The notes under the pieces were generated by a model, which was given only the letters and a program-made list of their open reading frames with translations, had not been told where the DNA came from and did no database searches. Position numbers and translations under genes: made by a program. From contig NZ_NIDE01000017.1 of assembly GCF_002197845.1 (NCBI RefSeq), forward strand, positions 386,712 through 418,711: 32,000 nucleotides of DNA. Direction: 5' to 3'. The stretch is from Fimbriiglobus ruber (GTDB taxonomy: Bacteria; Planctomycetota; Planctomycetia; Gemmatales; Gemmataceae). This document shows positions 8,431 to 31,246 of the stretch, one piece after another (position 1 is the stretch's first letter; each line of letters opens with the position of its first letter).

Positions 8431-8445
8431 ACCCGCTTCGGGTTT

Positions 8446-14111: not shown

Positions 14112-14840
14112 CTAAACCTCTTCGGCGGTCGCGGCCGGCGGCGTCAGCCAGATGTCGCCGAACGGCTCGGGCTGGTCGAGCCGGATGGCCCGGATCTTGA
14201 TCAGTTCGAGGACGGCGAGGAAGAGCCCGATCAACCGCACCTTGGTGTGCGGCGGGGTGAACAGGTCGCGGAAGAGAACCCGCCCGGCTGCCAGGACTTG
14301 GTCGCGGATGAGCGATTCGTACACGTGCTGCGGCGTGTCATCTTCGACCACCGAGGTCGCGTCCGCGGCGTGCGTCTCGCGCATGAGCCGGGCGAACGCA
14401 CTCACAAGATCCCACAACTCGACCGGCCGCACAACCGGGGCACCGGGGCGAACCGGCTCTTCCGGGGTGACGCGCGCGAGGCGTGTTCCCTGTTGCTCGG
14501 CCCGCTGTTCGAGGGCGGCGGCCGCGTCCTTGAAGGCCCGGTATTCGAGTAGTTGCCGGACCAGCTCGCGCCGGGGGTCGGGCGCCTCGTGGTCCGCGGC
14601 CGGGGCGTCCACCGGCAGCAGCGACCGCGCCTTGATCTCCATGAGCGTGGCCGCCATCACCAGGAAGTCCCCGGCGAGTTCCACGTCCAGGGCTTGGGCG
14701 GCCGCCATGAATTCCGTGTACTGGTCCACGAGTTCCGAGATCGCGATGTCGAGGACGTCCACCTCGTTGCGCTTGACCAGGTACAGCAACAGGTCGAGCG
14801 GGCCGTGGAAGGAGTCGAGCGCGACCTGGTAGAGTGTCAT
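14112..14840 (-). CDS. scpA: Segregation and condensation protein A
   Basis: YQVALDSFHGPLDLLLYLVKRNEVDVLDIAISELVDQYTEFM...LAGDFLVMAATLMEIKARSLLP is the ScpA/kleisin N-terminus. Confidence 0.93.
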   Translation of the reverse strand: MTLYQVALDSFHGPLDLLLYLVKRNEVDVLDIAISELVDQYTEFMAAAQALDVELAGDFLVMAATLMEIKARSLLPVDAPAADHEAPDPRRELVRQLLEYRAFKDAAAALEQRAEQQGTRLARVTPEEPVRPGAPVVRPVELWDLVSAFARLMRETHAADATSVVEDDTPQHVYESLIRDQVLAAGRVLFRDLFTPPHTKVRLIGLFLAVLELIKIRAIRLDQPEPFGDIWLTPPAATAEEV

Positions 14841-14873: not shown

Positions 14874-14900
14874 AGCCCGCGGGTTTTTCCCCCGCGGGCT
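14874..14900 (-). terminator. Rho-independent terminator for the kinase/tubulin-like genes
   Basis: 10-bp perfect stem AGCCCGCGGG/CCCGCGGGCT with a 7-nt loop; A-run at 14869-14874 reads as a U-tract on the minus strand, just after the stop at 14918. Confidence 0.85.
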
Positions 14901-14917: not shown

Positions 14918-17900
14918 TCAGTCGGTGTCAACGTCAACCCACGCCGTCACGTCCAGGCGGGCGTGCGGGTTGATCTGCTGGGCGTCCGGGACGACCCGGT
15001 AGGCGGCCGCCCAGGCCGGCCCGAGTTGGGGGACGGCGGCGAGCGGGACGGCCGAGTACTCGCGGTAAATCACCACCTCGTCCGGCACGGTGGCGGTGGC
15101 CGCCGCGTCGGGCAGCATGCGGGCCGCGAGGTCGCGGACCGGGTCGCCGCCCGCCCCGGTCGGGCTGCCGAACACCGTGACGGCGGACTGCGCCCACGGT
15201 CCCGGGCCGACCAGCGGCGGGGCCGCCCGGTCGAACGCCCGGCGGAGTTCGGCCACGGCCGCGTCCGCCGTCCCGTAGTGCTGGGCGAACATGCCGGCCA
15301 CGTCGGCCTCCCCGAGCCGCGCGTCGAGGTAGGCGCGGGCGGCCGTCCGGACCTCGCGGAGCAGTCCGAGGGGGCCGTCGATCGAGTTCACGCACGCCTG
15401 GTATAGCCCGCCGAACGTCCGCTCCAGCCGCTCTTGCACCTTGGTATCGAGGGCGATCAGGTCGTCGTCGGTCAGCGACCCGATGAACACCTGGGCCGCG
15501 TCTTCCGTCGTCGGGCACCGGGCCGGGAGCAGTTCGCCCGGGCCGCACCCGGGGGCCGGGAACTCGGATTCGAGGGCCAGGTCCCGGCGGCACGCCTCGG
15601 CCCGCTGGCGGTACGCGGACACGTCGCCCAGGATCTCGGTCAACAACTCCTTGAGTTCGCGGTACACCCGCAACACCCCGCGGATCAGCATGAGTTGGTG
15701 CTGCCCGCTCGGGTACTGACCGACCGCGGCCGCGAAGTCGGTCGCGGACACCTTCTTCATGCCCTTCTGGAAGTTCGTGTACGCGAGGATCTGTTCCAGC
15801 GCCGTCGCCGTCCCGGTTTCGAGCGCCGCCGCCTGCTTGTCGAGCTGGACGCGGGCCTTGTTCAGGACGGCGAGCATCTGGCGGGCCGCCTCTTCGGTCC
15901 CGGCGAGCCGGAACGCCGGGGTCTCGACCAGGCCGTGGAACAGGGCGGTGATTTCCGACCGGGCGAGCGCGGTGAGGTCGTCCGCGGTCGCCGCGACGGC
16001 CTCCTCGACGGCGGTGGGCGGGCGGGCGACGACGCCCTGTTGTTTGCCGAAAATGCGCTGCCACTGGTCGACCGCCGCGGTCACCCGGTCGGGGTCCGGG
16101 AGGCGGGCCAGCCACCCCTTCGGGAGGAGGATTTCGGTCGTCCGCGCGACGAGTTCCTGGATCGGCCCGCCGGCCGCCTGGTTGGCGGCGTCGGAGAGGC
16201 GGGTCGTGATCTTGTCCGGCGCCGTCCCCAGCCGGGTCCACTGGTTCGCCACCCACCCCGGGATGACCTGCCGCACGTGGGCCGGGTCGGTCGACACCCA
16301 GTGGTTGAGCAGGACCGGGGCGAGGATTCGCGCGGCCCGCCCGACCACCTCGGCCCGCGGCCACGAGTATCTGGTGAGCCCGCACACCCGCACCGATCCG
16401 GCCGACGTCTCCGGCGTGGGCGGCCGCGTTTGGTCGTCGGCGAGGCGGCCGACCTGTGACGTCGTACTGAGCCGCAGGAATTCCGCCGAGAGGGCCGTCG
16501 GGTCGCGGGTCACGTCCGCGTCGCCCGCTTTCCCGCCGGGGCCGGGCGGGCGGTTCCAGGCGTCGGTCCGCAGGCCCGGGGTCGACCGCCCGGACGGGGT
16601 GGTCCGCGAGATCATCGGCTGTGTGCCGCTCGGGCCGCGGGCGGTATTCGAGAGCGGGCCCGAGTTGCGGACGGTCGCCGCCGTCGCGGTTACGGTCGAC
16701 CCCGGGATGACCGGGGGAGAGTACGCCGACCCGGGGAATAGAAACACGTTGCTGAACGGGCGGTCCGCGTCGCGGACGTTCCCGACGCGCTCGTCGTAAG
16801 ACGCGGCGAACACGGTCTGCGGGCGGGAGTAGTGGTGCAGCTCAGTCAGCGCCGCGTACGTGTTGGCCTGAGACAGCGGGGTCGTGTTGGCGGCCGCCCC
16901 GTCCGGCGGCAGGTGGAACACGCCGACTACGTCGGGGTCGGTGTACCCCATCCGCTTGAGCCGGGAGCGGACGATGTACGCCAGGTCGAGGAACATGCCG
17001 CTCCCGGTCCCCCCGCCGAGACCCGCGACCACGTACACGCGGGGCCGGTTCGTCCGCACGGCCTGGCCGGTTCCGTCCCGGGTCGCGGTGAGCGCGACCG
17101 GGTTCAGGCAGGCGTCGAGTTCGGTCTGGATTTTTTGCACGAGCGCCCGCGAGTGGTCGCACAGCGCGAGCCGGCCGAACCCGCGGATCCCCATCGTGGT
17201 CGGCGTCCGCGTGAGCTTGTACAGCAGTTGCTGGTCGAACCACCCGTCCACCACGTTCCGCCCGTTGGGCCGCGGCTTCAGGTAGTGGGCGGCCCGGTTC
17301 AGTCGGGCGGCGAACACCTCTTCCGGGTCGAGCCCGGCCAACCCGGCCGCGGGGTCGGGCGCGGTCGCGGTCTGAACGTCCGGGTCCGTGTCGATGTACA
17401 GGGTGCGGAACGAGGGCACGGCGTCCGCCGGCCCGAACCTGTCGGCCAGGTGTTTCCGGAACCGCTGGAGGACGCGGAGCCCGGTGTACCCGAGGCCGAG
17501 GATCAGGGTCGGCTGGAGCGTCCCCGGGCCGGTTATCTCGCGCGGGGCGTCCTGCCGCGGGTAGGGCGGGTCGGTGTCGCCCCGCGGGGTCGGCGTCTGG
17601 ACGAGGGCGAACGGGAAATTGTCGGGTCCGACCGACGGCAGCGGGAACTGCGTCGGGGTCATGTTCGCGGGCGGCGCGTCGGCGGCCGGGGGGACGTGCG
17701 CCGGGAAAACTTCGATCGGTCCGGACTTGCTCCCGTCGCCGAGGCCGTGCCGCGAGCCGGGCGGGACGCCCCCGCTGCCCGCGGGGACCACCGTCCGGTC
17801 CGAGCCCGCGTTGCCGGCCCGGATCGCGGCGACCATCGCGGACACGCTCGGGAACCGCTCGTCCGGCTTCTTGGCCAGCGCGCGGGCCAGGGCCGGCCGG

Positions 17901-18631
17901 TCGCCCGGCGGGGACGGCGTCAGGTTCGGGGGCATTTGCAGGTGCTGCATGAGCAACTGCTGCATGCTGTTCCCGTCGAACGGCCGCTGGCCGCACAGCA
18001 GCTCCTGGTACACGCACGCCAGGCTGTACTGGTCGCAGAACCGGGACACGAACCCGTCGAACGTCTCGGGGGCGGCGTACACCGGGGTGATCCCGCCCGT
18101 CACCGACGCGACCATCCCTTCGAGGTCTTTGACCTGCCCGAAGTCCGCCACCTTGACGTGGTTGTAAAGGAGGAACAGGTTCTGGGGCTTGATGTCCAGG
18201 TGCTGGAGCTGGAACTGGTCGTTCATCAGGTCGAGGACTTCGGCCGTCTCGCTCATGTATTGCAGGAGTTCGTCCCGCGGGATGCCCGGGAGCTTCTGCG
18301 CGCGGCAGGCGCGGAACCGGTCCCACAGGTTGCAGTCGGCCAACTCCATGACGATCATGAGCCGGCCGTCGACGATGTCGAACCGGTCGAGGGCGAGCAG
18401 GTACGGGTGGCGGACCTGCTTGACCCGCTTGAGGGCTTTGAGTTCCTGCTCGGCGAACCGGTAGGAGTCCGTTTCCCGATTCCGGATGTCCCCGTGGACG
18501 ATCTTGATCGCCTTGAAAATGCCGCCCGGGGCCTCGGCCTTCCACACCTCGCCGAACCCGCCGCTGCCGAGGCGCTCCATCAGGCGGTACCCGGTGATCG
18601 GCTCGGTCTGGCTCTCGATTCGTGCGGTCAT
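14918..18631 (-). CDS. Ser/Thr protein kinase fused to a tubulin/FtsZ-like domain (1237 aa)
   Basis: Kinase: GYRLMERLGSGGFGEVWKAEAPGGIFKAIKIV, LQHLDIKPQNLFLL, VKVADFG, PVYAAPETF. C-terminal: LGYTGLRVLQRFRKHLADRFGP, YIDTDPD, RVYVVAGLGGGTGSGMFLDLAYIVRSRLKRMGY (tubulin-like G-loop, near 16990-17035). Confidence 0.88.
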   Translation of the reverse strand: MTARIESQTEPITGYRLMERLGSGGFGEVWKAEAPGGIFKAIKIVHGDIRNRETDSYRFAEQELKALKRVKQVRHPYLLALDRFDIVDGRLMIVMELADCNLWDRFRACRAQKLPGIPRDELLQYMSETAEVLDLMNDQFQLQHLDIKPQNLFLLYNHVKVADFGQVKDLEGMVASVTGGITPVYAAPETFDGFVSRFCDQYSLACVYQELLCGQRPFDGNSMQQLLMQHLQMPPNLTPSPPGDRPALARALAKKPDERFPSVSAMVAAIRAGNAGSDRTVVPAGSGGVPPGSRHGLGDGSKSGPIEVFPAHVPPAADAPPANMTPTQFPLPSVGPDNFPFALVQTPTPRGDTDPPYPRQDAPREITGPGTLQPTLILGLGYTGLRVLQRFRKHLADRFGPADAVPSFRTLYIDTDPDVQTATAPDPAAGLAGLDPEEVFAARLNRAAHYLKPRPNGRNVVDGWFDQQLLYKLTRTPTTMGIRGFGRLALCDHSRALVQKIQTELDACLNPVALTATRDGTGQAVRTNRPRVYVVAGLGGGTGSGMFLDLAYIVRSRLKRMGYTDPDVVGVFHLPPDGAAANTTPLSQANTYAALTELHHYSRPQTVFAASYDERVGNVRDADRPFSNVFLFPGSAYSPPVIPGSTVTATAATVRNSGPLSNTARGPSGTQPMISRTTPSGRSTPGLRTDAWNRPPGPGGKAGDADVTRDPTALSAEFLRLSTTSQVGRLADDQTRPPTPETSAGSVRVCGLTRYSWPRAEVVGRAARILAPVLLNHWVSTDPAHVRQVIPGWVANQWTRLGTAPDKITTRLSDAANQAAGGPIQELVARTTEILLPKGWLARLPDPDRVTAAVDQWQRIFGKQQGVVARPPTAVEEAVAATADDLTALARSEITALFHGLVETPAFRLAGTEEAARQMLAVLNKARVQLDKQAAALETGTATALEQILAYTNFQKGMKKVSATDFAAAVGQYPSGQHQLMLIRGVLRVYRELKELLTEILGDVSAYRQRAEACRRDLALESEFPAPGCGPGELLPARCPTTEDAAQVFIGSLTDDDLIALDTKVQERLERTFGGLYQACVNSIDGPLGLLREVRTAARAYLDARLGEADVAGMFAQHYGTADAAVAELRRAFDRAAPPLVGPGPWAQSAVTVFGSPTGAGGDPVRDLAARMLPDAAATATVPDEVVIYREYSAVPLAAVPQLGPAWAAAYRVVPDAQQINPHARLDVTAWVDVDTD

Positions 18632-18712
18632 ATCCGTTCCCCGGTGTCCCGGCAGCCTATGTAGTAAAGGAATCCGGCGCCCGGCCCGTCTCGGGCGGCG
18701 CCGGGGCGGACG

Positions 18713-21700
18713 TCATCCGGCGCCCGGAACGGGCCAGGGGAGGTCGGCCCGGGTGTGCGGGTTGTAGTCGGTGGCGAGCTGCTGCTCGTAGGCGTCGCGG
18801 GCGGCGCCGGACACCTGCGCGAGCGACGTCAGCGGAACCCGCGGGCACTCGCGGTAAATCAGAATGTCGTCCGCGAGCGGGGCCGGGATGAATTCGACCC
18901 CGGGGCAGGCGGCGACCGCGATCGCCCGGAACCGGTCCCCGTCCGCCCCGGCGGGGGCGGCCAGGATCGCGGCCTCGGTCGCCCGCCCGCCGACGCCGGT
19001 CAGGTCCGGGGCCGCCTTCGCGAACCCGGCCGCCAGGAGGTCGCGGGCGGGTTGCCCGTTCCCCTGGTAGCGGAGGAACACGGTGGCCGGGTTGGCCTTC
19101 TCGAGCCGGGCGTCCAGGAACGACCGCGCCCCGGTCTCGAGCAGTTTGAGGAAGTCCGGAGCCTTCTCGGCCTTCAGGCAGACGTTCACCAGCCCGCGGC
19201 ACTTGCGGCTGACGTCTTTCTGGAGGGCGAGGTCGAAGGCCAGGATATCTTCGGGCGAGAGTTCGGCCAGCACCCGGTCGGCCGCGTCGTCCAGGGACGT
19301 ACACCCGGACGGGAGGATGAGGGTTCCGGGGCCGACGTCGCCGACGCCGGTCCCGGCGCCCCCGAGCGACTGCCCCATTTCCGCGATCCGGCCGCGGCAG
19401 AAGTTCACGTCCCGCAGGTATTCGGGGATGCTCCCGAGGAGCCCGCGGTACACGGCCAAGGCGGCGGTGTCGTAAATCAGTCGGAGACGTTTTTGGGAGT
19501 AGACCTTGAGCGCGTCGAGAACTTCGCCGGCCGCCCCCGATTTCCGCCCCGTGAAGCCGGCGTTGAGCCCGCCGATCGCCTGCAGAACCCGGCCGAAGGC
19601 CTCGCGGACGTCCCGGTCGCCTTCCTTGCAGAGCGGCTCCAACCCCTCGGCCGTGCGCCGGACGCGTTCGGTGATCTGGTTCAGGGCTTCCTCGGCCCCG
19701 GCCAACCGGTGCTGTGGCTGTTCGATGAACGACACCGCCAGCGCGGCCAAGTTGACCTCGATTTCGCCCGCGAATTTCTTGAACGACTCCTGGACCACGG
19801 TCTCCAGGCTGCCCGGACTCTCGTTCTCGCACGCGGGCTTGCCGACCCATTTGAGGAGTTGGTCCAGCACCTCGCACGCGGTCGCCGCGTCCAGGCGCCC
19901 GCCGCCCGCCGCCCGCGCCCGAAGCGAGTCCACGGCCGCATCGAACACCGCGTCCGGGTCTTCCCGGAGGGCATCACGGGCGACTTGCTCGAACCGCCCG
20001 ATGACGGACGGCAGGTCGAGCTTTTGCTTGGCCCACTGCTCGTCGAGCCACCGCTGGATCGGCTCCCGCAGGTGGGCCGTTTCCTTCCCACCCCACCGCT
20101 GGAGGAGCCGCTGGTTGAACCGGCGGGTGGCGGTCGTCAGCAGTTCCACCCGCGGCCACGAAAACTGGTGCAGGCCGAACAGTTGGACGACCGGGGCGGC
20201 CGCGTCGCCGGTCACCGGCGTGACGGACCGGACGTAATCCGTCACCTTCCCGGCGGTGGTCAACAGTTCGGTGAACACCCCGCGGGCGGCCAACGAGTAG
20301 GCCAGTTTCTGGTCTTTATCCTTGGGTTTGGGAAGCGATACGATCGCGGTTCGGGCGAACGGGCCGTCCCCGTCCACCACCGCGGGCTCGTTCGCGTCGA
20401 ACGTCGTCTTGTACGTGTTCCCGGTCGCGAAGTGGTAGACCTCGGCCAGGGCGGCGAACGTGTTCACGAGCCCGATCGTCTTGGACGGGGCCTTGTCCGC
20501 GGGCGGCGCGAGCAGGACGCCGACGGTTTCCGGCTTCCGGTACCCGACCGCGCGGAGTTCGTGCTTGAGGATGTACGCTAGGTCGAGGAACATGCCGGAC
20601 CCGGTCCCGCCGGCCAGCCCGGCCAGGACGTACGCCCGCGGGCGGTTCGAGCGGACCCCGAGCCCGGTCCCGGCGGCCGCCTTGTCGAGCGGATCGTCCG
20701 TCAGGAACGTTTCGATTTCCTGGCGAATCCGCTGCGCGATCACGCGGTAATTGTCGCACAGGGCAAGTCGGCCGAACGCCCGGACGCCGGCGGCCGGCCC
20801 GGGCGACTTCGGGAGTTGATACAAGAGTCCGGGCGGGAGCCAACTTTCGACCGCCGGGGCCGCACTCTGTTGGAGGTAGTGGGCGGGCCGGTTCAGCCGG
20901 GCCGGAACGACCTCGCGGGCCGCGAACGGGTCCTGGCCCGACGTCGCCGCGGTGATCGCTTCCGGGTCCGTGTCGATGTACAAATACCGGAATGTGGGGA
21001 CGGCGTCCGTGCTGCCGAACCGGTCGCGGACGAACTGCCGGAGCGCCCGCAGGACGATCAGGCCGGTCTGTCCGACCGCGACGACGAGCGACGGGAATAG
21101 GACACCGGGGCCCTCTTTTTCGGGCGGCGCGATGCCGAGACTGCTCATCCGCCCGGTCTGGAAGACTTGCGGGCGCGGCAAGGTCGCCGCCGGCCCGCTG
21201 CCCGGGGTGCCCTGCGGCGTGAGCATCCGGGGCGTGACGAGGCCGGGCGTTCCGTAAGTCCCCCCGGGGCGGCGCGGGTTCGGGGTCGCGACTCCGAACC
21301 CGCCCGGGCTCATGAGCGACCGCTCCAGTGCCGCGGCCGCCACGCCACTCCCGGGACGGGTCGTGGCACGGTCCGGCCCGGGGGGCGTATTCGGCTCGGG
21401 CGAAAGGCCGGGCGGGCGTGGCGTGTCGGCTTTCGGGTCGCGGGTCGTTCCCAGCAGCGGCGTGGCGCCGGACCCCGTTCCCCCGGAGCCGGGTTGCTGG
21501 GTGGTGCCCGCGAATTTGAGGGCGCGAACCATGTCCGCGCACGTTTTCCACCGGTCGTCCGGCTTTTTACTCAGCGACCGCCCGATTACCGGTCGGTCAT
21601 TCTCGTTGAGGGGGCTCAGGTCCGGCGCCCCGTTGAGGTGTTGGAGCAGCAATTGTTTCGTGTTCGCCCCGTTGAAGGGCCGCGTTCCGGTGAGCAACTC

Positions 21701-22324
21701 CTGAAACACGATCGCCAGGCTGTACTGGTCGCTGTACCGGCTGACCCAGCCCTCGAACGTTTCCGGGGCGGCGTACACCGGCGTCACCCCGCCGGTCACC
21801 GTCGCCCGCATCCCCTCGAACGCCTTGGCCAGGCCGAAGTCGGCCACTTTCACGTGGTTGAACGTCAGGAAGATGTTCTGCGGCTTCACGTCCAGGTGTT
21901 GAATCTGGTAGTGGTCGTTCATCAGGTCCAGGGCTTCCGCGACTTCTTCCATGTACGCGATCAGCTCGACCCGCGGGATGCCGATCATGCCCTGCGTGCG
22001 GCACTCGCGGAACCTGTCCCACAGGTTGCGGTCGGCCAACTCCATAACAATGATGAGTTGGCCGTCGACGACGTCGAACCGTTCCAGGGTCAGGATGTAC
22101 GGGTGGCGGATCGACTTGACGCGGTGCAGGGCCTTGAGTTCCTGCTCGGCGGGCCGGCCGTCTTCGTCGGCCGAATCCAGGTCGCCGAACACGAACTTCA
22201 TGGCCTTCAACAGGCCGCCCGGGGCCTCGACCTTCCACACTTCGCCGAACCCGCCACGGCCGAGCCGTTCGAGTAATTTGTACCCTGGGAGGGGTTCTTC
22301 ATGACTGGTCAGGCGTACCGGCAT
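18713..22324 (-). CDS. Ser/Thr protein kinase fused to a tubulin/FtsZ-like domain, paralogue (~1203 aa from MPVRLTSH; ORF track start 22381)
   Basis: GYKLLERLGRGGFGEVWKVEAPGGLLKAMKFVFG, IQHLDVKPQNIFLTFNHVKVADFGLAKAFEGM, PVYAAPETFEGW; then VGQTGLIVLRALRQFVRDRFGSTDAVPTFRYLYIDTDPE and RAYVLAGLAGGTGSGMFLDLAYILKHELRAVGYRKPETVGVLL. Confidence 0.88.
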   Translation of the reverse strand: MPVRLTSHEEPLPGYKLLERLGRGGFGEVWKVEAPGGLLKAMKFVFGDLDSADEDGRPAEQELKALHRVKSIRHPYILTLERFDVVDGQLIIVMELADRNLWDRFRECRTQGMIGIPRVELIAYMEEVAEALDLMNDHYQIQHLDVKPQNIFLTFNHVKVADFGLAKAFEGMRATVTGGVTPVYAAPETFEGWVSRYSDQYSLAIVFQELLTGTRPFNGANTKQLLLQHLNGAPDLSPLNENDRPVIGRSLSKKPDDRWKTCADMVRALKFAGTTQQPGSGGTGSGATPLLGTTRDPKADTPRPPGLSPEPNTPPGPDRATTRPGSGVAAAALERSLMSPGGFGVATPNPRRPGGTYGTPGLVTPRMLTPQGTPGSGPAATLPRPQVFQTGRMSSLGIAPPEKEGPGVLFPSLVVAVGQTGLIVLRALRQFVRDRFGSTDAVPTFRYLYIDTDPEAITAATSGQDPFAAREVVPARLNRPAHYLQQSAAPAVESWLPPGLLYQLPKSPGPAAGVRAFGRLALCDNYRVIAQRIRQEIETFLTDDPLDKAAAGTGLGVRSNRPRAYVLAGLAGGTGSGMFLDLAYILKHELRAVGYRKPETVGVLLAPPADKAPSKTIGLVNTFAALAEVYHFATGNTYKTTFDANEPAVVDGDGPFARTAIVSLPKPKDKDQKLAYSLAARGVFTELLTTAGKVTDYVRSVTPVTGDAAAPVVQLFGLHQFSWPRVELLTTATRRFNQRLLQRWGGKETAHLREPIQRWLDEQWAKQKLDLPSVIGRFEQVARDALREDPDAVFDAAVDSLRARAAGGGRLDAATACEVLDQLLKWVGKPACENESPGSLETVVQESFKKFAGEIEVNLAALAVSFIEQPQHRLAGAEEALNQITERVRRTAEGLEPLCKEGDRDVREAFGRVLQAIGGLNAGFTGRKSGAAGEVLDALKVYSQKRLRLIYDTAALAVYRGLLGSIPEYLRDVNFCRGRIAEMGQSLGGAGTGVGDVGPGTLILPSGCTSLDDAADRVLAELSPEDILAFDLALQKDVSRKCRGLVNVCLKAEKAPDFLKLLETGARSFLDARLEKANPATVFLRYQGNGQPARDLLAAGFAKAAPDLTGVGGRATEAAILAAPAGADGDRFRAIAVAACPGVEFIPAPLADDILIYRECPRVPLTSLAQVSGAARDAYEQQLATDYNPHTRADLPWPVPGAG

Positions 22325-22937
22325 CGATACGTTCCGATGGTGATCGCCCACGCGAACGGCGCGGCGATCCGTGGTGAGCATAACTGGGACTACCTACTCT
22401 GTAGCTCATAACGGACGTTTGGCAAAACCGCGGACTTCGCCCCGTTCCTCAAAACCGGTACTTTCTGGAAACAGCTCGCGATTTCGGTTCCGGGCAGAAA
22501 GCGGTGCTGAGGACCACCTCCGGTCGACCGCAACTCGCGCAACAGAATCCGCTTCCGCCGTCTACCTTGCACCCACCTTGCACCAGTGCGGGGCACGAAC
22601 GGGATTAGAAAGGCTCACACTTCCCGCTCTCGTGCCCGGATCGAAAATGGCAGGAAGTTACTGCGGTTGGGGACCTCGTGACTCGGAACCTGAATTTTCC
22701 TGCACGAGTGCAGACGACTCCGTGAGACGTTTCCCAGGGTTCGGGCCGTCGCAAATTGGTCGGAGTGCCCCTCTTCACCCACTTACCCAGACGGCGATGT
22801 CTTTTTCGAACGAACGGTTTAAACTGTGTACTTCCGGCGAGCGTGGTAAACGGGCATGACCCGGGCGCGGAGCGCGATTGCGACCGCCGGCGTAAATTTG
22901 TACTCTTTGAGCGTCATGTAACTCGTACGACTGCGTC

Positions 22938-23654
22938 ATGGAAGGCATTATGAGCGAACGGCATCGCACCGGATTATTGGTCAGCGTCCGGTCGGCCGAC
23001 GAGGCGACGACTGCGATCGAGAGCGGGGCCGACCTGATCGACGTGAAAGACCCGACCAAGGGGCCGCTCGGGATCGCCCACCACGAGGCGGTTGCCGGCG
23101 TCGTCGCCGCGGTCGGCGGGAAGGTTCCGGTCAGCGCGGCGCTCGGCGAGTGGTCGCCGTCGGTCCTGACCGAAGCGCACTGGCACCTCGAACTCCCATT
23201 GAATTACGTGAAGTGGGGCCTGGCGGGGTACAAGGGCGGCCCGGGGTGGGGGGAAGACCTCCTCGAAACCAAGCGGCAGGTGCCGGCCGGGATCGAAGTC
23301 GTGGCCGTCGCCTACGCCGACTGGGAGAAGGCGAACTCCGTGCCCCCGATGGAAGTCGCGAAGTTCGCCAAACGGTTCCGCTTCCGCGCGTTCCTGCTAG
23401 ACACGTTCGTCAAGGAAGGAAAATCACTCCTCGACCATATGTCGCCGGCCGAAATCCGTGAGATGGTCGAGAGCCTGCGGCGCGGCATGGTCGCGGTCGC
23501 GGTGGGCGGGTCGCTGAAGGTCGAACAACTGAAACAGCTAAAAGACGTGAAGCCGGACTGGTACGCGGTCCGCGGGTCGGTCTGCGCCGGCGGCAAGCGC
23601 GACGGTGTCCTCGACCCGGTGCGGGTCAAGAAGTGGAAAGAGGCTCTGGCGTAA
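22938..23654 (+). CDS. mfnB: (5-formylfuran-3-yl)methyl phosphate synthase-like protein (MfnB / DUF556)
   Basis: GLLVSVRSADEATTAIESGADLIDVKDPTKGPLGIA...VSAALGEW...YVKWGLAGYKG...AVAYADWEKANS...FLLDTFVKEGKSLLDHMSPAEI...DWYAVRGSVCAGGKRDGVLDPVRV. Alternative start MSERHRTG at 22950. Confidence 0.85.
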   Translation: MEGIMSERHRTGLLVSVRSADEATTAIESGADLIDVKDPTKGPLGIAHHEAVAGVVAAVGGKVPVSAALGEWSPSVLTEAHWHLELPLNYVKWGLAGYKGGPGWGEDLLETKRQVPAGIEVVAVAYADWEKANSVPPMEVAKFAKRFRFRAFLLDTFVKEGKSLLDHMSPAEIREMVESLRRGMVAVAVGGSLKVEQLKQLKDVKPDWYAVRGSVCAGGKRDGVLDPVRVKKWKEALA

Positions 23655-26485
23655 TCGACAACACGCGAGCCGGTCGTTACCGATCCTTCCCGAGGTGTGG
23701 CGTACTCGTGAGACTCGTTGCTGTTCTCCTCGTCGCGGGACTCGTGTCGCCGCCTCTCTTCTCCGTGCCGCCCGACGCGACTCCTCCCGCAGATTGGCTC
23801 GTTCACCCGGACGGGTTCAAGGCGAGTGTGCGCGAGGACAAAAGCCGCAAGGAACTCACCCTCGGCAACGGGCTCGCGACCCGCGTGATTCGGCTGGCAC
23901 CGAACGCGGCCACCGTCAGCCTGGATAACCCGATCACCGGCGAAAGCCTGCTCCGGGCAGTGGGACCGGAATCGCGGGTGACGATCGATGGCGTCGAGTA
24001 CGCCGTCGGCGGGTTGTCCGGCCAGCCGGTCAAGAATTACCTTAAGGCCGAATGGCTCGACGCCCTCCGCGACTCACCCGACGCTTACCACTTCAACGGT
24101 TGGAAGGAAGGACCGATCGAGGCCCGCTTCCCGTGGAAGAAACGGACCGAGTGGCTGTCGCGCGACCTGCCGTGGCCCCCGCCGGGGCGGCACGTCGTAC
24201 TCGAATTCGTCCCGCCAACCAAGCGACCGGGTCCACCGGCCGGGCCGGTGTTGTTCGAAGACCACTTCCGCGGACCGCTCAACGAAGCCTGGAAAGTTCA
24301 CGCCAGTCCGGCGCACGCCCGCTCGTCGTTCAGCAACGAGGGGAAGCCCGGCGAGATTCTGGCGGTCCCGGACACGGCGGTTTACGCCGAACGTGGTTGG
24401 CCCAAGGGCGGGGTCGCGGTCGACGTAACGGTCGACACGGGCGACGATACCAGTTCCAACTCGTGGGGTCCCGGGCTGGCTCTGGTTTGCCCGGACCGGG
24501 TCGTTTGTTTCGCCGCCCGGCCCGCGTCGGGGCAGTTCGAGATCTGCGACCCGGACCGCGGGGAACACATCGCTGGGAAGTTCGACCGCGCCAAGCCGGT
24601 CACGCTGCGGGCACGAATCGACGGTGGCCGGGTGACGTTTGAAGCGTCGCAGGACGACGGCAAGACCGTCACGGTCGTCGGCGACGCCCGGCTCGCCCGC
24701 GAGCCGACCGCCATCCGCGTCGGGAAGGTCGGCAAGAGTGGGCGCGGGGTCGATTACCCCAACGCGACGGGCGAGCCGGTGCGCAGCCACGTCCGGTCGG
24801 TCGTGATCCGCGGCCCCGAGCCCGTACAAAAAGCCGCCCCGCGCACCGACCTGCCCGCTGTCGAAATCCACTACGAAATTTACGACGGCCTCCCGCTCTT
24901 CTCGAAGTGGCTGGTCGTGCGCAACGGGACGCAGAAGCCCGTGCGCGTGAACGCCTTTGTGTCCGAAGAACTGCGGCTGACCGAAGTCGAGTCGAACGTC
25001 GAAGCGGCGCCCGACCGCGAGCGGCCCAACCTCTGGGTCGAGACCGATTACGCCTTCGGAGCCATGGACGCGCCGCACGCCGTCAACAAGTCCGTGTTCC
25101 TCACCACCGACCCCGACTACCCCACCCAGGTCCACTACGACCGCCAAACGCCCTGCCTGCTTCGGTGCCGACCACTGGCGGGACCGGACCAGGACGTTGC
25201 GCCGGGCGGCAGCCTGGAATCGTTCCGGACGTTCGAGCTTTTATTGGACTCCACCGAGCGGGAGCGGCGGGGTCTGGCCCAGCGGCGGATGTACCGCACC
25301 CTCGCGCCGTGGACGGCCGAGAACCCGCTGATGTTCCACGTCCGCCGGGCGGACGAACAGACGATCCGGGCGGCGATCGAGCAGGCGTCCGAAGTCGGGT
25401 TCGAGATGCTGATCCTCAGCTTCGGCAGCGGCTTCCACTTTGAATCGACTGATCCGCTGTACCGTAGGAAGTTTCAGGCGCTCGCGGCGGCGGCCCGGGA
25501 GAAAAAGCTCGCCTTGGGCGGGTACTCCCTGCTTGCCTCCCGCGGGGCCGCCGACCCGAAGGACAACACCCAGGGGCCGCCCGCGATGTACGGCGCGATG
25601 CCCTGCCTCGGGTCGAAGTGGGGCCACGCCTACCTCCAACAATTGAAGGGCTTCATCTCCGAAGCGGACCTCGGGGTGCTCGAACACGACGGATCGTACC
25701 CCGGCGACCGGTGCAACAGCCACGCCCACCCCTTCCACCGCGGGCTCGAAGACTCGCAGTGGGTCCAGTGGCGGGCGATCACCGACCTGTACAAGTGGTG
25801 CCGGGCCGAAGGTGTTTACCTGAACATCCCGGACTGGTATTTCCTGGCCGGCGGCAACAAGTGCGGCATGGGCTACTGCGAAACCAACTGGTCGCTACCC
25901 CGGGCCGAGCAGGAACTGATCGAGCGCCAGAACATCTTCGACGGTACCTGGACCAAGACGGGCTCGATGGGTTGGATGTTCGTCCCGCTCACCGAGTACC
26001 AGGGCGGCGGGCCGGCCGCGACGATCGAGCCGCTGGCCAAACACCTCGACCACTACGAGGCCCGGCTCGCCAACCTCCTCGGGGCCGGCGTCCAGGCTTG
26101 CTATCGGGGGCCGCGGCTATATGACACCGACGAGACGAAAGCTCTGGTGAAGAAGTGGGTGGCGTTCTACAAGACGCACCGCGAAGTTCTCGACGGCGAC
26201 CTCATCCACCTGCGGCGGGCGAACGGCCGCGACTGGGACGGCTGGCTCCACGTCAACCCGCAGGGCAAAGAGAAAGGACTGGCGTTCTTCTACAACCCAT
26301 TGTCCGAGCCCATCGAGCGCGAGATCCGCGTCCCGCTCCAATACACCGGGTTGGTCGACAAGGCCCGCGTCTCCATCGACGGCGCGACGCCCACATCCGT
26401 TGCCCTCGACCGGACGGCGACCGCTACCCTGAAGGTGAGAATCCCGGCCCGCGGACGCACCTGGGTGGTCTTTACCACAGAATAA
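23633..26485 (+). CDS. Secreted alpha-galactosidase-like (GH-D clan-like) protein; alternative GTG start at 23708
   Basis: Signal-like VRLVAVLLVAGLVSPPLFS; TIM-barrel-like segment FEMLILSFGSGFHFES...YSLLAS...LGVLEHDGSYPGDRCNSHAHPFHRGLEDSQWVQWRAITDLYKWCR...YLNIPDWYFLAG; inserted LFEDHFRGPLNEAWKV concanavalin-like region. Confidence 0.65.
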   Translation: MERGSGVIDNTRAGRYRSFPRCGVLVRLVAVLLVAGLVSPPLFSVPPDATPPADWLVHPDGFKASVREDKSRKELTLGNGLATRVIRLAPNAATVSLDNPITGESLLRAVGPESRVTIDGVEYAVGGLSGQPVKNYLKAEWLDALRDSPDAYHFNGWKEGPIEARFPWKKRTEWLSRDLPWPPPGRHVVLEFVPPTKRPGPPAGPVLFEDHFRGPLNEAWKVHASPAHARSSFSNEGKPGEILAVPDTAVYAERGWPKGGVAVDVTVDTGDDTSSNSWGPGLALVCPDRVVCFAARPASGQFEICDPDRGEHIAGKFDRAKPVTLRARIDGGRVTFEASQDDGKTVTVVGDARLAREPTAIRVGKVGKSGRGVDYPNATGEPVRSHVRSVVIRGPEPVQKAAPRTDLPAVEIHYEIYDGLPLFSKWLVVRNGTQKPVRVNAFVSEELRLTEVESNVEAAPDRERPNLWVETDYAFGAMDAPHAVNKSVFLTTDPDYPTQVHYDRQTPCLLRCRPLAGPDQDVAPGGSLESFRTFELLLDSTERERRGLAQRRMYRTLAPWTAENPLMFHVRRADEQTIRAAIEQASEVGFEMLILSFGSGFHFESTDPLYRRKFQALAAAAREKKLALGGYSLLASRGAADPKDNTQGPPAMYGAMPCLGSKWGHAYLQQLKGFISEADLGVLEHDGSYPGDRCNSHAHPFHRGLEDSQWVQWRAITDLYKWCRAEGVYLNIPDWYFLAGGNKCGMGYCETNWSLPRAEQELIERQNIFDGTWTKTGSMGWMFVPLTEYQGGGPAATIEPLAKHLDHYEARLANLLGAGVQACYRGPRLYDTDETKALVKKWVAFYKTHREVLDGDLIHLRRANGRDWDGWLHVNPQGKEKGLAFFYNPLSEPIEREIRVPLQYTGLVDKARVSIDGATPTSVALDRTATATLKVRIPARGRTWVVFTTE

Positions 26486-26578: not shown

Positions 26579-28183
26579 CTACCGGGTGACCGTGACCGGC
26601 TCGCCTTTGGCTGCCAAGCGAACCTCTTCGACGGCGGCCACGTTGCCGCCGCCCCCGGCGCCGCCGAGGACGACGACCGCGTCGGTGCCGTACGGGACCA
26701 ACCGGCCGACCCGCCGCTTCGTCACCACCTCGCCAACCTTTTCCCACCCATCTCCGCCGGCCGTCAGCCGGAAGACGGGGCCGGCCGAGGTGTTCACCAC
26801 GAGGCGGCCGTCCACGACCGTCGCCGCGGGCGAGAACGCGTTCCCGGTCTTGCCGGGCAGCGCCGGGCCGGCCGACCACTGGCCGGTCGCCACGTCCAGG
26901 ATGTCGACGTGCGAATCGGCCCCCTTCTCACCCATCCCGGCGAGGACGTACACCTTCGACCCCACGGCCGCGGCGGTCAGTGCCCGCCGCTTGAAAGGCT
27001 GGGGGATCGCTTTCCACTGGCCGCCGTTCGCGGACAGGTCGAGGACTTGCACCGTGTCGTGCCAGACCGGTTGTTCGCCGGCCCCCTTCATTTGCCAGCC
27101 GCCGACGACCACCAACTTGTCACCCGCCACGACCACGTCGTGCGACGACCGGCCGGCCGGCAGCGGGGCGATCGGTTCCCACTTCTTGGTCGCCGGGTCG
27201 AACCGGGCACAGTCGGCCACCGACAGGTTGTCGGCCGGTTCGTCAGGCTTGTTCCGCGGCTGCATGCCGCCGACGCGGTAGACCTTGCCGCCGTGCGTGG
27301 CGAGGTTCATCCCTTGCAGGATCGGCCCGCCGGGCAGTTCTTCCCACGCGGTCCCGCCCTCCAGTTTCAACCGGTGGAACGTGCCGATGACGGAGGCGGT
27401 GTCGTACTTGTGCGTGGTGCCCGAGTGGCCGCCGTAAATGTAGACGTAGCCGTCGCAGGCGATCGCCCCGAGACTCGACACGGCTTTGGGCAGCGGCGGG
27501 AGACCCGGGCCGGCGACGTCGACGACCAGCGTGGGGTAGTGGCGGACGGTGTCGTACTTCTTGCCGTCGAGTTCGCCGGACTTCGTTTCGACGACCCGCG
27601 ACCACGCGCCGTACCGACCGGCCGCCTTGTATTCCGGCGTCAGTCCGTCCTTGTCGGTCTTGACCTTCGCGCCTTCGCCGCCGCTCGGCGGGATCACCGT
27701 GACCTCGGCGTCTGCGACCGGCTTGCCCGCGGCCAGCAGTTTGAACCGGACCGCTCCGGTTTGTCCGACGGGGACCAGTTCGGCTGGGACAGCCGAGCCC
27801 AGCGTGACCAGGGCGTCGTCGGCGCGGCCGAGGACCGCCTTGGGGTAGTAGACGAGGCGGAACGCGGGGTTGTCGCCGCGCTGCCGCACGCCTAGGTCGG
27901 TCGTGCCGAAGATCACCCGCGGGCCGTCGCCCGGGACTTCGACGCTGAGGGCGTGTTCCTTCGCGGTCGTCGTCAGGGCCGTGTCTTTGCCGCCGACGGC
28001 ACGGGCGGTGAGCTTCGTGCCGGCGAACAGCTTCGCGTTCACCCCCGCGTCGGGCTCCAGGCCCTCGCTGAGGACGACGGTGGCTTTGTTCGCCCCGTCG
28101 GGGATGACGAAGATGAAGTGGGCGCGGGCGGCGGGAACCAGGATCAACGCGGCGACCGCCGCGACGAGTAAGCGTTTTAGCAT
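26579..28183 (-). CDS. Secreted DUF4198-like domain plus kelch beta-propeller fusion protein
   Basis: Signal MLKRLLVAAVAALILVPAARAHFIFVIPDG; N-terminal AGKPVADAEVTVIPPSG...VKTDKDGLT (DUF4198/NikM-like); kelch repeats VYIYGGH, VYRVGGM, LVVVGGW, VYVLAGMG, VVVLGGAG. Confidence 0.78.
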   Translation of the reverse strand: MLKRLLVAAVAALILVPAARAHFIFVIPDGANKATVVLSEGLEPDAGVNAKLFAGTKLTARAVGGKDTALTTTAKEHALSVEVPGDGPRVIFGTTDLGVRQRGDNPAFRLVYYPKAVLGRADDALVTLGSAVPAELVPVGQTGAVRFKLLAAGKPVADAEVTVIPPSGGEGAKVKTDKDGLTPEYKAAGRYGAWSRVVETKSGELDGKKYDTVRHYPTLVVDVAGPGLPPLPKAVSSLGAIACDGYVYIYGGHSGTTHKYDTASVIGTFHRLKLEGGTAWEELPGGPILQGMNLATHGGKVYRVGGMQPRNKPDEPADNLSVADCARFDPATKKWEPIAPLPAGRSSHDVVVAGDKLVVVGGWQMKGAGEQPVWHDTVQVLDLSANGGQWKAIPQPFKRRALTAAAVGSKVYVLAGMGEKGADSHVDILDVATGQWSAGPALPGKTGNAFSPAATVVDGRLVVNTSAGPVFRLTAGGDGWEKVGEVVTKRRVGRLVPYGTDAVVVLGGAGGGGNVAAVEEVRLAAKGEPVTVTR

Positions 28184-28361
28184 GTCGGGTACCTTGGGTG
28201 GTGGGTAAGAGTTTGTGAAAGTCGTTTTTTGGGGTTAGCGGTCGTTTAATGGTCGCTGCAGGGACGTTCTTGGTTTTGAGCCCCTCCGGGGCGACCGAAC
28301 GTAGATCCGGGCGGGAGCCCGGGGACACCGGGGCTGACGGCGTGCCGCACCCGAATCAGAT

Positions 28362-29312: not shown

Positions 29313-29420
29313 GGGTGGACCTCCGGTAAGCGGAAGAAACCACGAGCCGCATAGCGTACGGTGGGCCGGGGGCGGATGAGCGCCAGACTCGGCGACGGAA
29401 GCGTAGCGTTCTCGAACACA

Positions 29421-29449
29421 ATCTTGTTGAGATTGAATGTCAACAAGAT
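29421..29449. promoter_or_regulatory. 10-bp perfect inverted repeat, candidate operator between divergent genes
   Basis: ATCTTGTTGA (29421-29430) / TCAACAAGAT (29440-29449), 9-nt spacer, upstream of the DUF1559 gene. Confidence 0.5.
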
Positions 29450-29621
29450 GCTGATAGATTAAGCGGAACGCGGCTGCCGTCAACCGGAATCAGGACTTTC
29501 CTACTGCTTTTTCCCAGGACTCTATTACCAACGGCTTTTCAGCGTTCTGACTGAGATTACGGAACCGTAAGATAGAGTCTGCGACTAAGTCTCATTCGCT
29601 ACCGACGAAATTGAGGTCATT

Positions 29622-29798: not shown

Positions 29799-29806
29799 CC
29801 TGCCGC

Positions 29807-31222: not shown

Positions 31223-31246
31223 CGATCCGTCTGCGGGAGGGCAAGG

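What the first reader, a model, noticed from the sequence alone, without database searches (positions are those of the whole stretch)
14918..22324. Tandem pair of giant kinase-tubulin/FtsZ-like fusion proteins
Two adjacent same-strand genes, separated by only 81 bp, encode ~1,200-aa paralogues. Each has an intact Ser/Thr kinase domain (glycine loop, catalytic Lys, HLD(I/V)KPQN, ADFG, APE), a Pro-rich linker, and a domain with a tubulin/FtsZ-type G-loop (GGGTGSGMFLDLAYI and AGGTGSGMFLDLAYI). Most Planctomycetes are known to lack canonical FtsZ, so a predicted nucleotide-binding tubulin-like domain tethered to a kinase could be a phospho-regulated cytoskeletal or scaffold system. Possible roles include division, membrane organisation or stress response; the function is not known from the sequence.
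Basis: partly seen in the sequence, partly recalled or inferred. Interest (0 to 1): 0.88.

Follow-up and report, generated by a model that had tools for sequence, protein, structure and literature searches.

The report
Paired kinase–tubulin-like (FtsZl1) fusion genes
Two neighbouring genes of the planctomycete Fimbriiglobus ruber each fuse a protein kinase to a divergent tubulin/FtsZ-like domain; this fusion type was described computationally in 2010 and has a Pfam family, but its function has never been tested.

Summary
Two minus-strand genes, A (18713-22324, 1203 aa) and B (14918-18631, 1237 aa), lie 81 bp apart. Each encodes an intact Hanks-type kinase, a Pro/Gly/Thr-rich linker, a tubulin-like domain (Pfam Tubulin_2, E about 1e-35) and a roughly 460-aa helical C-terminal region.

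An AlphaFold model (pLDDT 88) matches tubulin, FtsZ and CetZ by Foldseek at probability 1.0. The kinase catalytic residues and the T1, T2 and T4 nucleotide-binding motifs are 96-100% conserved in 310 full-length relatives.

The novelty was overstated. This is the FtsZl1 family of Makarova and Koonin (2010), who already noted the N-terminal kinase in Planctomycetes. Papers from 2023 and 2024 repeat the point, and NCBI names both proteins 'tubulin-like domain-containing'.

Three things appear new:
- A and B are ancient paralogues whose order (A upstream, B downstream) is kept across deep divergence.
- The A gene almost always sits divergent to an ASCH/4-HFC-P synthase gene pair.
- scpA, the SMC kleisin gene, follows the cassette in four distant lineages.

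No T7-type catalytic loop or FtsZ-like C-terminal domain could be identified, so polymerisation is unproven. My best reading is a GTP-dependent self-assembling kinase scaffold with a housekeeping, possibly chromosome or cell-cycle, role. Interest is moderate.

The parts
18713..22324 (-). Gene A: PK-FtsZl1 fusion protein, 1203 aa (upstream paralogue, 'A-type')
   Evidence: ORF; Pfam Pkinase + Tubulin_2; 100% identical to an NCBI Fimbriiglobus ruber protein named 'tubulin-like doman-containing protein'
21629..22282 (-). A kinase domain (aa 15-232); non-RD Hanks-type kinase with HLDVKPQN
   Evidence: Pfam; catalytic residues conserved in 310 relatives
21089..21502 (-). A linker (aa 275-412): 20% Pro, 17% Gly, 12% Thr; poorly conserved
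   Evidence: Composition; consensus is mostly 'x'
20102..21088 (-). A tubulin-like (Tubulin_2/FtsZl1) domain, aa 413-741
   Evidence: Pfam; AF2 model; Foldseek hits to tubulin, FtsZ and CetZ
20582..20617 (-). A T4 signature LAGGTGSGMFLD (aa 570-581)
   Evidence: conservation
18716..20101 (-). A C-terminal region (aa 742-1203): helical bundle with two very long helices (about 49 and 61 residues), followed by a small alpha/beta end domain
   Evidence: AF2 models (pLDDT 87.9 each); no PDB fold match
18632..18712 (.). 81-bp A-B intergenic spacer with no terminator-like site
14918..18631 (-). Gene B: PK-FtsZl1 fusion protein, 1237 aa (downstream paralogue, 'B-type')
   Evidence: ORF; Pfam; NCBI F. 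ruber P0269, 100% identity
17945..18589 (-). B kinase domain (aa 15-229), HLDIKPQN
16730..17506 (-). B tubulin-like domain, N-terminal part (aa 376-634), including the T4 signature LGGGTGSGMFLD at 16985-17020
16427..16744 (-). B-specific low-complexity insertion of about 70-100 aa (Thr/Pro/Ser/Gly-rich). It lies between the strand equivalent to S6 and the core helices of the tubulin-like domain
   Evidence: Gap in the BLASTP alignment; composition
14874..14900 (-). Strong intrinsic-terminator-like hairpin just after the B stop codon: 10-bp stem with 9 G-C pairs, followed by TTTTTT
14112..14840 (-). scpA (SMC kleisin), 77 bp downstream of B; a recurrent neighbour of the cassette in distant lineages
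   Evidence: Pfam SMC_ScpA E 6e-31; same position in L021, L022 and the P0218 locus
22938..23654 (+). 4-HFC-P synthase (MfnB-like) gene, divergent from A; the most conserved neighbour of A-type genes
   Evidence: Pfam; synteny
22325..22937 (.). 613-bp divergent intergenic region. The ASCH gene present here in most relatives is missing

Best explanation
Both genes encode cytoplasmic members of the FtsZl1 (Pfam Tubulin_2) branch of the tubulin/FtsZ superfamily, in the planctomycete-specific form that carries an N-terminal Hanks-type Ser/Thr kinase.

Shown here:
- Both domains keep every residue needed for nucleotide binding and phosphotransfer.
- A and B are old paralogues, probably co-transcribed.
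- The cassette sits in a vertically inherited, housekeeping chromosomal context.

Inferred:
- The tubulin-like domain binds GTP and drives homo- or A/B hetero-oligomerisation, helped by the long helical hairpin of the C-terminal region.
- Assembly brings the tethered non-RD kinase domains together, so that they phosphorylate each other (the Thr-rich activation loop or the Pro/Thr-rich linkers) and bound substrates. Nucleotide state and phosphorylation would then be coupled.
- The most likely cellular role is a housekeeping cell-cycle function such as chromosome organisation, segregation or division in these FtsZ-less bacteria. The basis is the recurrent scpA neighbour.

Whether these proteins form true filaments is open.
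For: Identity:
- Pfam Tubulin_2 and Pkinase score well above their cut-offs.
- The AF2 model has pLDDT 87.9 and pTM 0.74.
- The top 50 Foldseek PDB hits are all tubulin, FtsZ, CetZ or OdinTubulin, at probability 1.00 and E 2e-5 to 2e-4.
- hhalign aligns T1 and T2 (VVAVGQTG...YIDTDPEA) with FtsZ VIGVGGGG...AVNTDAQA.

Purifying selection on both active sites in 310 full-length relatives:
- Kinase: G-loop, K43, E62, H-L-D145, K147, N150, DFG and APE are about 100% conserved.
- Tubulin-like domain: T1 G418/G421, T2 D-T-D, T4 GGTGxG, D581 and N621 are 96-100% conserved.

Family size: 2963 clusters at 50% identity with E<1e-3. Of 116 full-coverage representatives, 92 carry an N-terminal extension of more than 300 aa.

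Cytoplasmic location: no transmembrane-like segment. PMC11032199 also places the tubulin-like domain only in cytoplasmic kinases.

Operon and paralogy:
- No terminator in the 81-bp A-B gap.
- Tandem A then B is seen in 10 other loci, including Limnoglobus, Tuwongella and a distant metagenomic lineage.
- The upstream gene is always A-type and the downstream gene always B-type.

Housekeeping context:
- The divergent ASCH/4-HFC-P synthase neighbour is conserved in about 20 loci (and others).
- scpA lies directly downstream in the window, in Tuwongella (where it overlaps B by 35 nt), in L022 (18-bp gap) and in a single-copy locus (36-bp gap).

Kinase-FtsZl1 coupling beyond the fusion: separate kinase genes are frequent in FtsZl1 operons of other phyla (PMC2875224). 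The fusion therefore acts as a Rosetta stone for that partnership.
Against: - No conserved NxDxxD/E T7 loop was found. The loop after the core helices is variable.
- The C-terminal 502 aa has no FtsZ or tubulin C-domain match, nor any PDB match (best E 0.03, TM 0.18 or less). The elements that make FtsZ and tubulin polymerise and hydrolyse GTP cooperatively are therefore not demonstrated.
- The Pfam Tubulin family proper (PF00091) scores below its threshold (15-22 bits against 33).
- In this window a strong terminator hairpin separates B from scpA.
- scpA is adjacent in only 4 of about 20 loci examined. It is not next to such a gene in Planctopirus limnophila, where Plim_1683 has other neighbours.
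- A and B are unlinked in Gemmata, and some lineages have a single copy. A heteromer therefore cannot be obligatory for the family.
- No experimental data were found.
Confidence: 0.45

Rival explanations
1. Membrane-remodelling machine. As Makarova and Koonin proposed for FtsZl1 generally, the proteins would shape or maintain the extensive cytoplasmic-membrane invaginations or the budding neck of Gemmataceae, with the kinase as regulator.
For: This is the published inference for the family (PMC2875224). Planctomycetes have complex endomembranes and lack FtsZ (PMC11032199). The long helical hairpin of the C-terminal region weakly resembles elongated helical bundles of membrane-active proteins, but only at E 0.03 or worse.
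Against: - The vWA, OmpA-like, GTPase and transmembrane partners on which that inference rested were not found among the ORFs of this window that were scanned, nor among the called genes of the related loci.
- Neither protein has a transmembrane or obviously amphipathic segment.
- The fold similarity to pore-forming toxins is not significant (TM 0.18 or less).
Confidence: 0.2
2. Non-polymerising GTP switch. The tubulin-like domain would act as a nucleotide-sensing or dimerising regulatory module for the kinase, analogous in logic to Roc-COR-kinase (ROCO/LRRK2) proteins, and would not be a cytoskeletal element.
For: [quoted passage not shown]
- The kinase is the most conserved part: 63% identity between A and B against 32% for the rest.
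- 13 of the 17 positions that differ between A and B but are conserved within each paralogue lie in the kinase.
- The kinase is non-RD in the whole family, so regulation by something other than activation-loop priming is plausible.
Against: - An 800-aa module with long coiled-coil-like helices is large for a simple switch.
- Every characterised branch of the tubulin/FtsZ superfamily polymerises (general knowledge).
- Retention of two paralogues in fixed order suggests structural partnership.
Confidence: 0.2
3. Biological-conflict (anti-phage or programmed cell death) system. Here NTP-dependent assembly of a tubulin-like protein would set a threshold for an effector, as Kaur et al. 2020 proposed for tubulin plus coiled-coil proteins linked to vWA, GAP1-N2 GTPases and HSP70.
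For: - PMC7159879 places related tubulin/coiled-coil proteins in conflict systems.
- The kinase domains hit PADLOC models mad6 and PD-T4-6 (E 1e-37 to 1e-43).
- A third paralogue in L022 lies next to a 919-aa HSP70/MreB-like gene.
Against: - The PADLOC hits cover only the generic kinase domain. The NCBIfam MAD6 score is 61-85 bits against a cut-off of 460.
- No vWA, GTPase or effector genes were found in the neighbourhood.
- The locus is syntenic across genera and deeper lineages, between housekeeping genes: 4-HFC-P synthase, scpA and DAHP synthase. That is the opposite of a variable defence island.
- No phage relatives appear beyond generic FtsZ or tubulin.
Confidence: 0.1

Closest known systems
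FtsZl1 family (Makarova & Koonin 2010) = Pfam Tubulin_2 PF13809, planctomycete kinase-fused subgroup
   Same: - Strong Pfam match.
- N-terminal FtsZ-like nucleotide-binding domain with T1 and T4 conserved and nothing alignable beyond H5.
- A long coiled-coil-like region and an alpha-helical C-terminal part (description).
- An extra N-terminal protein kinase, as reported for Planctomycetes.
   Different: - The vWA, GTPase and OmpA operon partners typical of the family were not found among the scanned ORFs.
- There are two fixed-order paralogues in tandem, with a conserved ASCH/4-HFC-P synthase neighbour and a recurrent scpA neighbour. None of the papers I could search mention this.
Canonical FtsZ, tubulin, CetZ and TubZ
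   Same: Predicted Rossmann-like GTPase fold (Foldseek probability 1.0, TM by target 0.38-0.52). T1 glycine loop, T2 D-T-D (compare FtsZ N-T-D) and T4 GGTGSG signature.
   Different: - PF00091 scores below threshold.
- About 12-15% identity.
- Family-specific inserts between T1 and T4.
- No recognisable T7 NxDxxD/E motif and no FtsZ_C or Tubulin_C domain.
- No FtsA/ZipA-binding C-terminal peptide.
- Fused to a kinase.
Hanks-type bacterial Ser/Thr kinases (PknB/StkP class)
   Same: All catalytic motifs are present. Best NCBIfam similarity is to PknB and StpK7 kinase domains. PknB/StkP-class kinases phosphorylate division and segregation proteins (general knowledge).
   Different: The kinase is non-RD (H-L-D, invariant in 307 of 310). 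It has no transmembrane segment and no PASTA or other sensor domain. Its partner domain is tubulin-like.
Alpha/beta-tubulin and BtubA/B (adjacent paralogous tubulin genes forming heterodimers)
   Same: Two anciently diverged paralogues encoded side by side, probably co-transcribed, with order conserved.
   Different: - No evidence here of heterodimerisation.
- Neither paralogue has lost a nucleotide-binding motif, and only 4 of the 17 positions that differ between A and B but are conserved within each lie outside the kinase.
- The paralogues are unlinked in Gemmata, and some lineages have a single copy.
ROCO proteins (Roc GTPase-COR-kinase, e.g. LRRK2)
   Same: A guanine-nucleotide-binding domain and a protein kinase in one large polypeptide, which suggests nucleotide-gated kinase signalling (analogy only).
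   Different: The G domain is unrelated (Ras-like against tubulin-like) and the domain order differs. There is no homology outside the kinase.
Tubulin plus coiled-coil components of GTPase-centric conflict systems (Kaur, Burroughs, Iyer, Aravind 2020)
   Same: A tubulin-superfamily domain fused to C-terminal coiled-coil or alpha-helical regions. These are probably the same FtsZl1 lineage.
   Different: Those systems are defined by linked GAP1-N2/DO-GTPases, vWA, FNIII and HSP70 genes. None was found among the scanned ORFs here. They also lack the fused kinase.

Membership tests
FtsZl1 / Pfam Tubulin_2 (PF13809) | Significant match to the family profile | tested here: met
   124.3 and 121.4 bits against a gathering cut-off of 27
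FtsZl1 / Pfam Tubulin_2 (PF13809) | [quoted passage not shown] | tested here: met
   Secondary-structure order in the AF2 models. Helices 474-522 and 529-589 of the modelled fragment form the long pair. This matches the description in PMC2875224
FtsZl1 / Pfam Tubulin_2 (PF13809) | Operon association with vWA-domain protein, divergent P-loop GTPase or OmpA-like protein | tested here: not met
   Pfam scans of 20 larger ORFs of the window (seven gave no hit) and the called genes in 12 related loci show none. This is typical of the family, not obligatory
Planctomycete PK-FtsZl1 subgroup | N-terminal Ser/Thr protein kinase domain fused to the FtsZl1 module | tested here: met
   Pkinase aa 15-230 in both proteins. 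Literature:
Tubulin/FtsZ superfamily | Rossmann-like GTPase-domain fold | tested here: met
   Foldseek against PDB: the top 50 hits are all tubulin, FtsZ, CetZ or OdinTubulin, at probability 1.00. This rests on a predicted structure
Tubulin/FtsZ superfamily | T1 glycine loop and T4 signature [SAG]GGTG[SAT]G | tested here: met
   G418 is conserved in 310/310 and G421 in 306/310. The four glycines of T4 GGTGxG are 299-310/310 and the Thr 298/310
Tubulin/FtsZ superfamily | T7 'synergy' loop with a catalytic acidic residue, and the C-terminal activation domain that completes the active site of the next subunit | tested here: inconclusive
   - No conserved NxDxxD/E motif. The loop after the core helices is variable.
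- The only conserved acid nearby is D696 of A, at 80% or more, in G-K-x-x-D-x-x-R.
- The C-terminal model has no FtsZ or tubulin C-domain hit.
Tubulin/FtsZ superfamily | GTP binding, GTP hydrolysis and polymerisation | not testable with these tools
   Needs biochemistry and EM
Canonical FtsZ (cell-division protein) | PF00091 above threshold, FtsZ_C domain, conserved C-terminal FtsA/ZipA-binding peptide | tested here: not met
   PF00091 scores 15.1 and 21.6 bits against a cut-off of 33. No FtsZ_C hit. Sequence search of PDB finds nothing
Hanks-type Ser/Thr protein kinase (active) | Gly-rich loop, VAIK Lys, alphaC Glu, HxD catalytic Asp, Asn, DFG and APE | tested here: met
   All are present in A and B and at least 98% conserved in 310 relatives. 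HRD is replaced by HLD, so the kinase is non-RD
Known anti-phage kinase systems (MADS MAD6, PD-T4-6, Mokosh MkoA, Stk2) | Full-length match to the system protein and presence of the partner genes | tested here: not met
   PADLOC hits cover the kinase domain only. NCBIfam MAD6 scores 61-85 bits against a cut-off of 460. No partner genes were found

The most novel reading that the evidence does not exclude
A and B co-assemble, alpha/beta-tubulin-style, into a GTP-dependent heteropolymer decorated with kinase domains. This polymer would be the missing cytoskeletal element for chromosome segregation or bud-neck division in FtsZ-less Gemmataceae, acting on or with the SMC-ScpA condensin encoded next to it.
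Probability: 0.1. Interest if true: 0.85.

Novelty: new member of a known kind. Interest (0 to 1): 0.4.

Why it matters
Planctomycetes divide without FtsZ, and the machinery that does the job is still unknown. The kinase-FtsZl1 proteins are the only tubulin-superfamily proteins reported in this phylum in the papers I read. They are widespread and strongly conserved. This work shows that they sit in a stable housekeeping locus that repeatedly includes the condensin kleisin gene scpA.

The papers on planctomycete cell division, essential genes and general biology that I could open do not mention them. A clear domain map, the conserved residues to mutate, the A/B paralogue pairing and the scpA link make a concrete, testable candidate. 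None of this changes the fact that the protein type itself has been in the literature and in Pfam since about 2010.

Tried and rejected
- Sequence search of the non-kinase 877 aa of B against PDB found only chance hits (E above 1).
Residue-level equivalence beyond that could not be obtained by sequence.
- I considered whether the far C-terminal beta-alpha-beta-beta unit (model residues 719-765), together with strand 313-323 and helix 326-345, is an FtsZ C-domain split by a 370-aa helical insertion. The order of secondary-structure elements fits. However, Foldseek of the 502-aa C-terminal model gave no FtsZ or tubulin hit, and I had no coordinates. This stays an untested idea, not a finding.
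- A defence-system reading was rejected as the main explanation: PADLOC and NCBIfam hits are kinase-only and the locus is syntenic.
- An alpha/beta-like catalytic asymmetry between A and B was rejected. No nucleotide-binding or kinase motif is lost in either paralogue.
- Rfam found nothing in the window.
- I searched for an ASCH remnant in the 613-bp upstream gap and found none.
- Supplements of the P. limnophila essential-gene paper contain no 'tubulin' annotation. The essentiality of a homologue there could not be read off.

Full report
**1. Observation**

The window carries two long minus-strand ORFs, 14918..18631 (1237 aa, here 'B') and 18713..22381. The start codon that homologues and NCBI use for the second ORF is the ATG at 22324, giving 1203 aa (here 'A'). 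A protein 100% identical to A, from Fimbriiglobus ruber, is 1203 aa long, and the family consensus begins MPVRL. The two genes are 81 bp apart.

All quoted motifs are present. BLASTP of A against B gives 63% identity over the kinase (E 5e-114) and 32% identity over about 880 further residues (E 4e-95). The two are true full-length paralogues.

**2. What the proteins are**

Pfam finds Pkinase (aa 15-230) and Tubulin_2 PF13809 in both proteins. Tubulin_2 scores 124 and 121 bits against a cut-off of 27. The classical Tubulin/FtsZ family PF00091 touches only the T4 region and scores below its threshold.

NCBIfam and PADLOC hits are confined to the kinase domain and lie far below the family cut-offs. 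A sequence search of PDB with the non-kinase part finds nothing.

An AlphaFold2 model of A residues 400-1203 is confident (pLDDT 87.9, pTM 0.74). Its 50 best Foldseek matches in PDB are all tubulins, FtsZ, CetZ or OdinTubulin. These have probability 1.00, E 2e-5 to 2e-4, 325-380 aligned columns and target-normalised TM 0.38-0.52. In the viral structure library the only significant matches are phage FtsZ or tubulin homologues. A family profile aligns T1 and T2 with FtsZ: VVAVGQTG...YIDTDPEA against VIGVGGGG...AVNTDAQA.

In an alignment of 310 full-length relatives:
- The kinase G-loop, Lys43, Glu62, His-Leu-Asp145, Lys147, Asn150, DFG and APE are essentially invariant.
- The tubulin-type motifs T1 (G418, G421), T2 (D451-T-D453) and T4 (GGTGxG), plus D581 and N621, are 96-100% conserved.
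- The catalytic-loop motif is H-L-D in 307 of 310, so this is a non-RD kinase family.

Both enzymatic modules are therefore under strong purifying selection in both paralogues.

The linkers (A 275-412, B 272-375) are about 20% Pro with abundant Gly and Thr, and are unconserved. B has an extra Thr/Pro/Ser/Gly-rich insertion of about 70-100 aa inside the tubulin-like domain. Neither protein has a transmembrane-like segment.

**3. What could not be confirmed**

The region after the last Rossmann strand consists of two helices (model residues 270-302), a variable loop, one long strand and a helix. After that comes about 350 aa of helices, including two very long ones (474-522 and 529-589), and then a small beta-alpha-beta-beta-alpha unit.

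No conserved NxDxxD/E T7 motif is present. The only well-conserved acidic residue near the end of the core helices is D696 of A.

A separate model of the last 502 aa (pLDDT 87.9) has no significant PDB neighbour. The best hit has E 0.03 and TM 0.18 or less, and the hits are generic long-helix bundles.

This agrees with Makarova and Koonin, who could not align FtsZl1 beyond helix H5.

**4. Prior knowledge**

The architecture is published.
- Makarova and Koonin 2010 defined the FtsZl1 family. [quoted passage not shown]
- Santana-Molina et al. 2023 repeat this for Tubulin_2.
- Odelgard et al. 2024 report the tubulin-like domain as the commonest partner domain among exclusively cytoplasmic planctomycete kinases.
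- NCBI names both F. ruber proteins 'tubulin-like domain-containing protein'.

The family is large. It has 2963 clusters at 50% identity with E<1e-3, and 468 with E<1e-30. Most full-coverage representatives carry the N-terminal extension of more than 300 aa.

I found no experimental study. A 2016 review of PVC division, the main text of the 2023 P. limnophila essential-gene paper and a 2025 review of the phylum do not mention these proteins.

**5. What appears to be new: the gene neighbourhood**

Loci came from a genome-collection scan and from contig look-ups.

- **Paralogue pairing.** The tandem A-then-B arrangement recurs in Limnoglobus roseus, several Fimbriiglobus and Gemmataceae MAGs, LR593887 (probably Tuwongella immobilis, identified from memory of the accession, not by a tool) and a much more distant metagenomic lineage (31% identity). 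In every case the upstream gene groups with A and the downstream gene with B. The duplication is therefore old and its order is fixed.
- **Exceptions.** In Gemmata the two are unlinked. Some lineages have a single copy.
- **Upstream neighbour.** An ASCH gene plus a 4-HFC-P synthase (MfnB-like) gene lie divergently upstream of the A-type gene in nearly all loci. In this window the ASCH gene is missing, leaving a 613-bp gap of lower G+C.
- **Downstream neighbour.** scpA lies immediately downstream of the cassette in four places: this window (77 bp), LR593887 (overlapping B by 35 nt), the distant L022 lineage (18 bp), and a single-copy locus (36 bp). It is absent from that position in about 16 other loci.
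- **Caveat in F. ruber.** A strong terminator-like hairpin (10-bp stem with 9 G-C pairs, then a T run) lies between B and scpA, whereas none lies between A and B. A-B co-transcription is likely. In F. ruber, B-scpA co-transcription is doubtful.
- **What is absent.** No vWA, GTPase or OmpA-like partner typical of FtsZl1 operons elsewhere was found among the scanned ORFs.

**6. Mechanism (inference)**

The conserved nucleotide-binding motifs and the superfamily's general behaviour suggest GTP-dependent self-association of the tubulin-like module. The long helical hairpin probably provides additional lateral or dimer contacts.

Each subunit carries a flexible 100-140-aa linker and a non-RD kinase. 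Assembly would therefore concentrate kinase domains for trans-phosphorylation, on the Thr-rich activation loop or the linkers, and for phosphorylation of bound substrates. Phosphorylation could in turn feed back on assembly.

Separate kinase genes are frequent in FtsZl1 operons of other phyla. The fusion thus marks a general kinase-FtsZl1 partnership.

The stable, vertically inherited housekeeping context and the recurrent scpA neighbour point to a cell-cycle role in chromosome organisation, segregation or division, in a phylum that lacks FtsZ. The evidence is modest. I put about 0.45 on the composite statement. Within it, identity is near certain and the cellular role is weak.

**7. Rivals**

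- Membrane remodelling, the original proposal for the family. The partners on which it rested were not found here.
- A non-polymerising GTP switch for the kinase. This is favoured by the missing T7 loop and C-domain, and by the kinase being the best-conserved part.
- A conflict system, as in Kaur et al. 2020. This is disfavoured by synteny, the absence of partner genes, and kinase-only PADLOC hits.

**8. Verdict**

It belongs to a protein type already described and catalogued. I file it as a new member of a known kind, with some new contextual detail: the fixed-order A/B pair, the ASCH/4-HFC-P synthase neighbour and the scpA neighbour.

Interest is 0.4. The function is genuinely unknown and bears on FtsZ-less division, but a specialist in the tubulin/FtsZ superfamily would not be surprised by the architecture.

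Noticed in passing
window 22325-22937; compare L021 7337-7750, L025 1571-2008, L027 1685-2125: A small ASCH-domain gene sits between the 4-HFC-P synthase gene and the A-type kinase-FtsZl1 gene in nearly all related loci. It is absent from this window: tblastn finds nothing better than E 0.2. What remains is a 613-bp gap with lower G+C (0.60). Why an ASCH/4-HFC-P synthase pair stays divergently linked to this gene over such deep divergence is unexplained.
   Followed up: partly
window 14874-14900 (- strand): A very strong intrinsic-terminator-like hairpin (AGCCCGCGGG-GGAAAAA-CCCGCGGGCT followed by TTTTTT) lies between the stop codon of gene B and the start of scpA. In LR593887 (probably Tuwongella) scpA instead overlaps the end of the B-type gene.
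   Followed up: partly
L022 1-5056: A distant metagenomic genome has a third kinase-Tubulin_2 paralogue. It lies convergent to a 265-aa gene with no Pfam hit, which is followed by a 919-aa HSP70/MreB-like protein with DUF3731. This recalls the tubulin-HSP70 pairing described for GTPase-centric conflict systems (PMC7159879). Loci L018 and L019 also carry a third, divergent paralogue type (about 27% identity to A and about 25% to B).
   Followed up: no
window 15001-18000 against the flanks: G+C is 0.73-0.74 across gene B and 0.69-0.70 across gene A, against 0.60-0.67 in the flanking genes. Many long spurious ORFs overlap both genes in other frames. The locus is syntenic in relatives, so this more likely reflects amino-acid composition (Ala/Pro/Gly/Arg-rich) than recent transfer.
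   Followed up: no
window 1171-2775 (+): An ORF with DDE transposase domains (DDE_Tnp_1_4, E 2e-24), about 12 kb from the cassette. It is the only mobile-element signature seen in the window.
   Followed up: no
window 6883-9270 (-): An MlaD/Mce-domain protein (515 aa) followed by an ABC-transporter ATPase (274 aa). This looks like an Mla/Mce-type lipid-transport module.
   Followed up: no
window 23633-26485 (+): A 950-aa ORF that overlaps the end of the 4-HFC-P synthase gene by 22 nt and has no Pfam match. It also has no counterpart in the related loci at E<1e-10.
   Followed up: no
window 26579-31702 (-): Three genes on the minus strand: a Kelch-repeat protein (534 aa), a DUF1559/N-terminal-methylation (pseudopilin-like) protein typical of Planctomycetes (373 aa), and a NAMPT-type nicotinamide phosphoribosyltransferase (631-aa ORF).
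   Followed up: no
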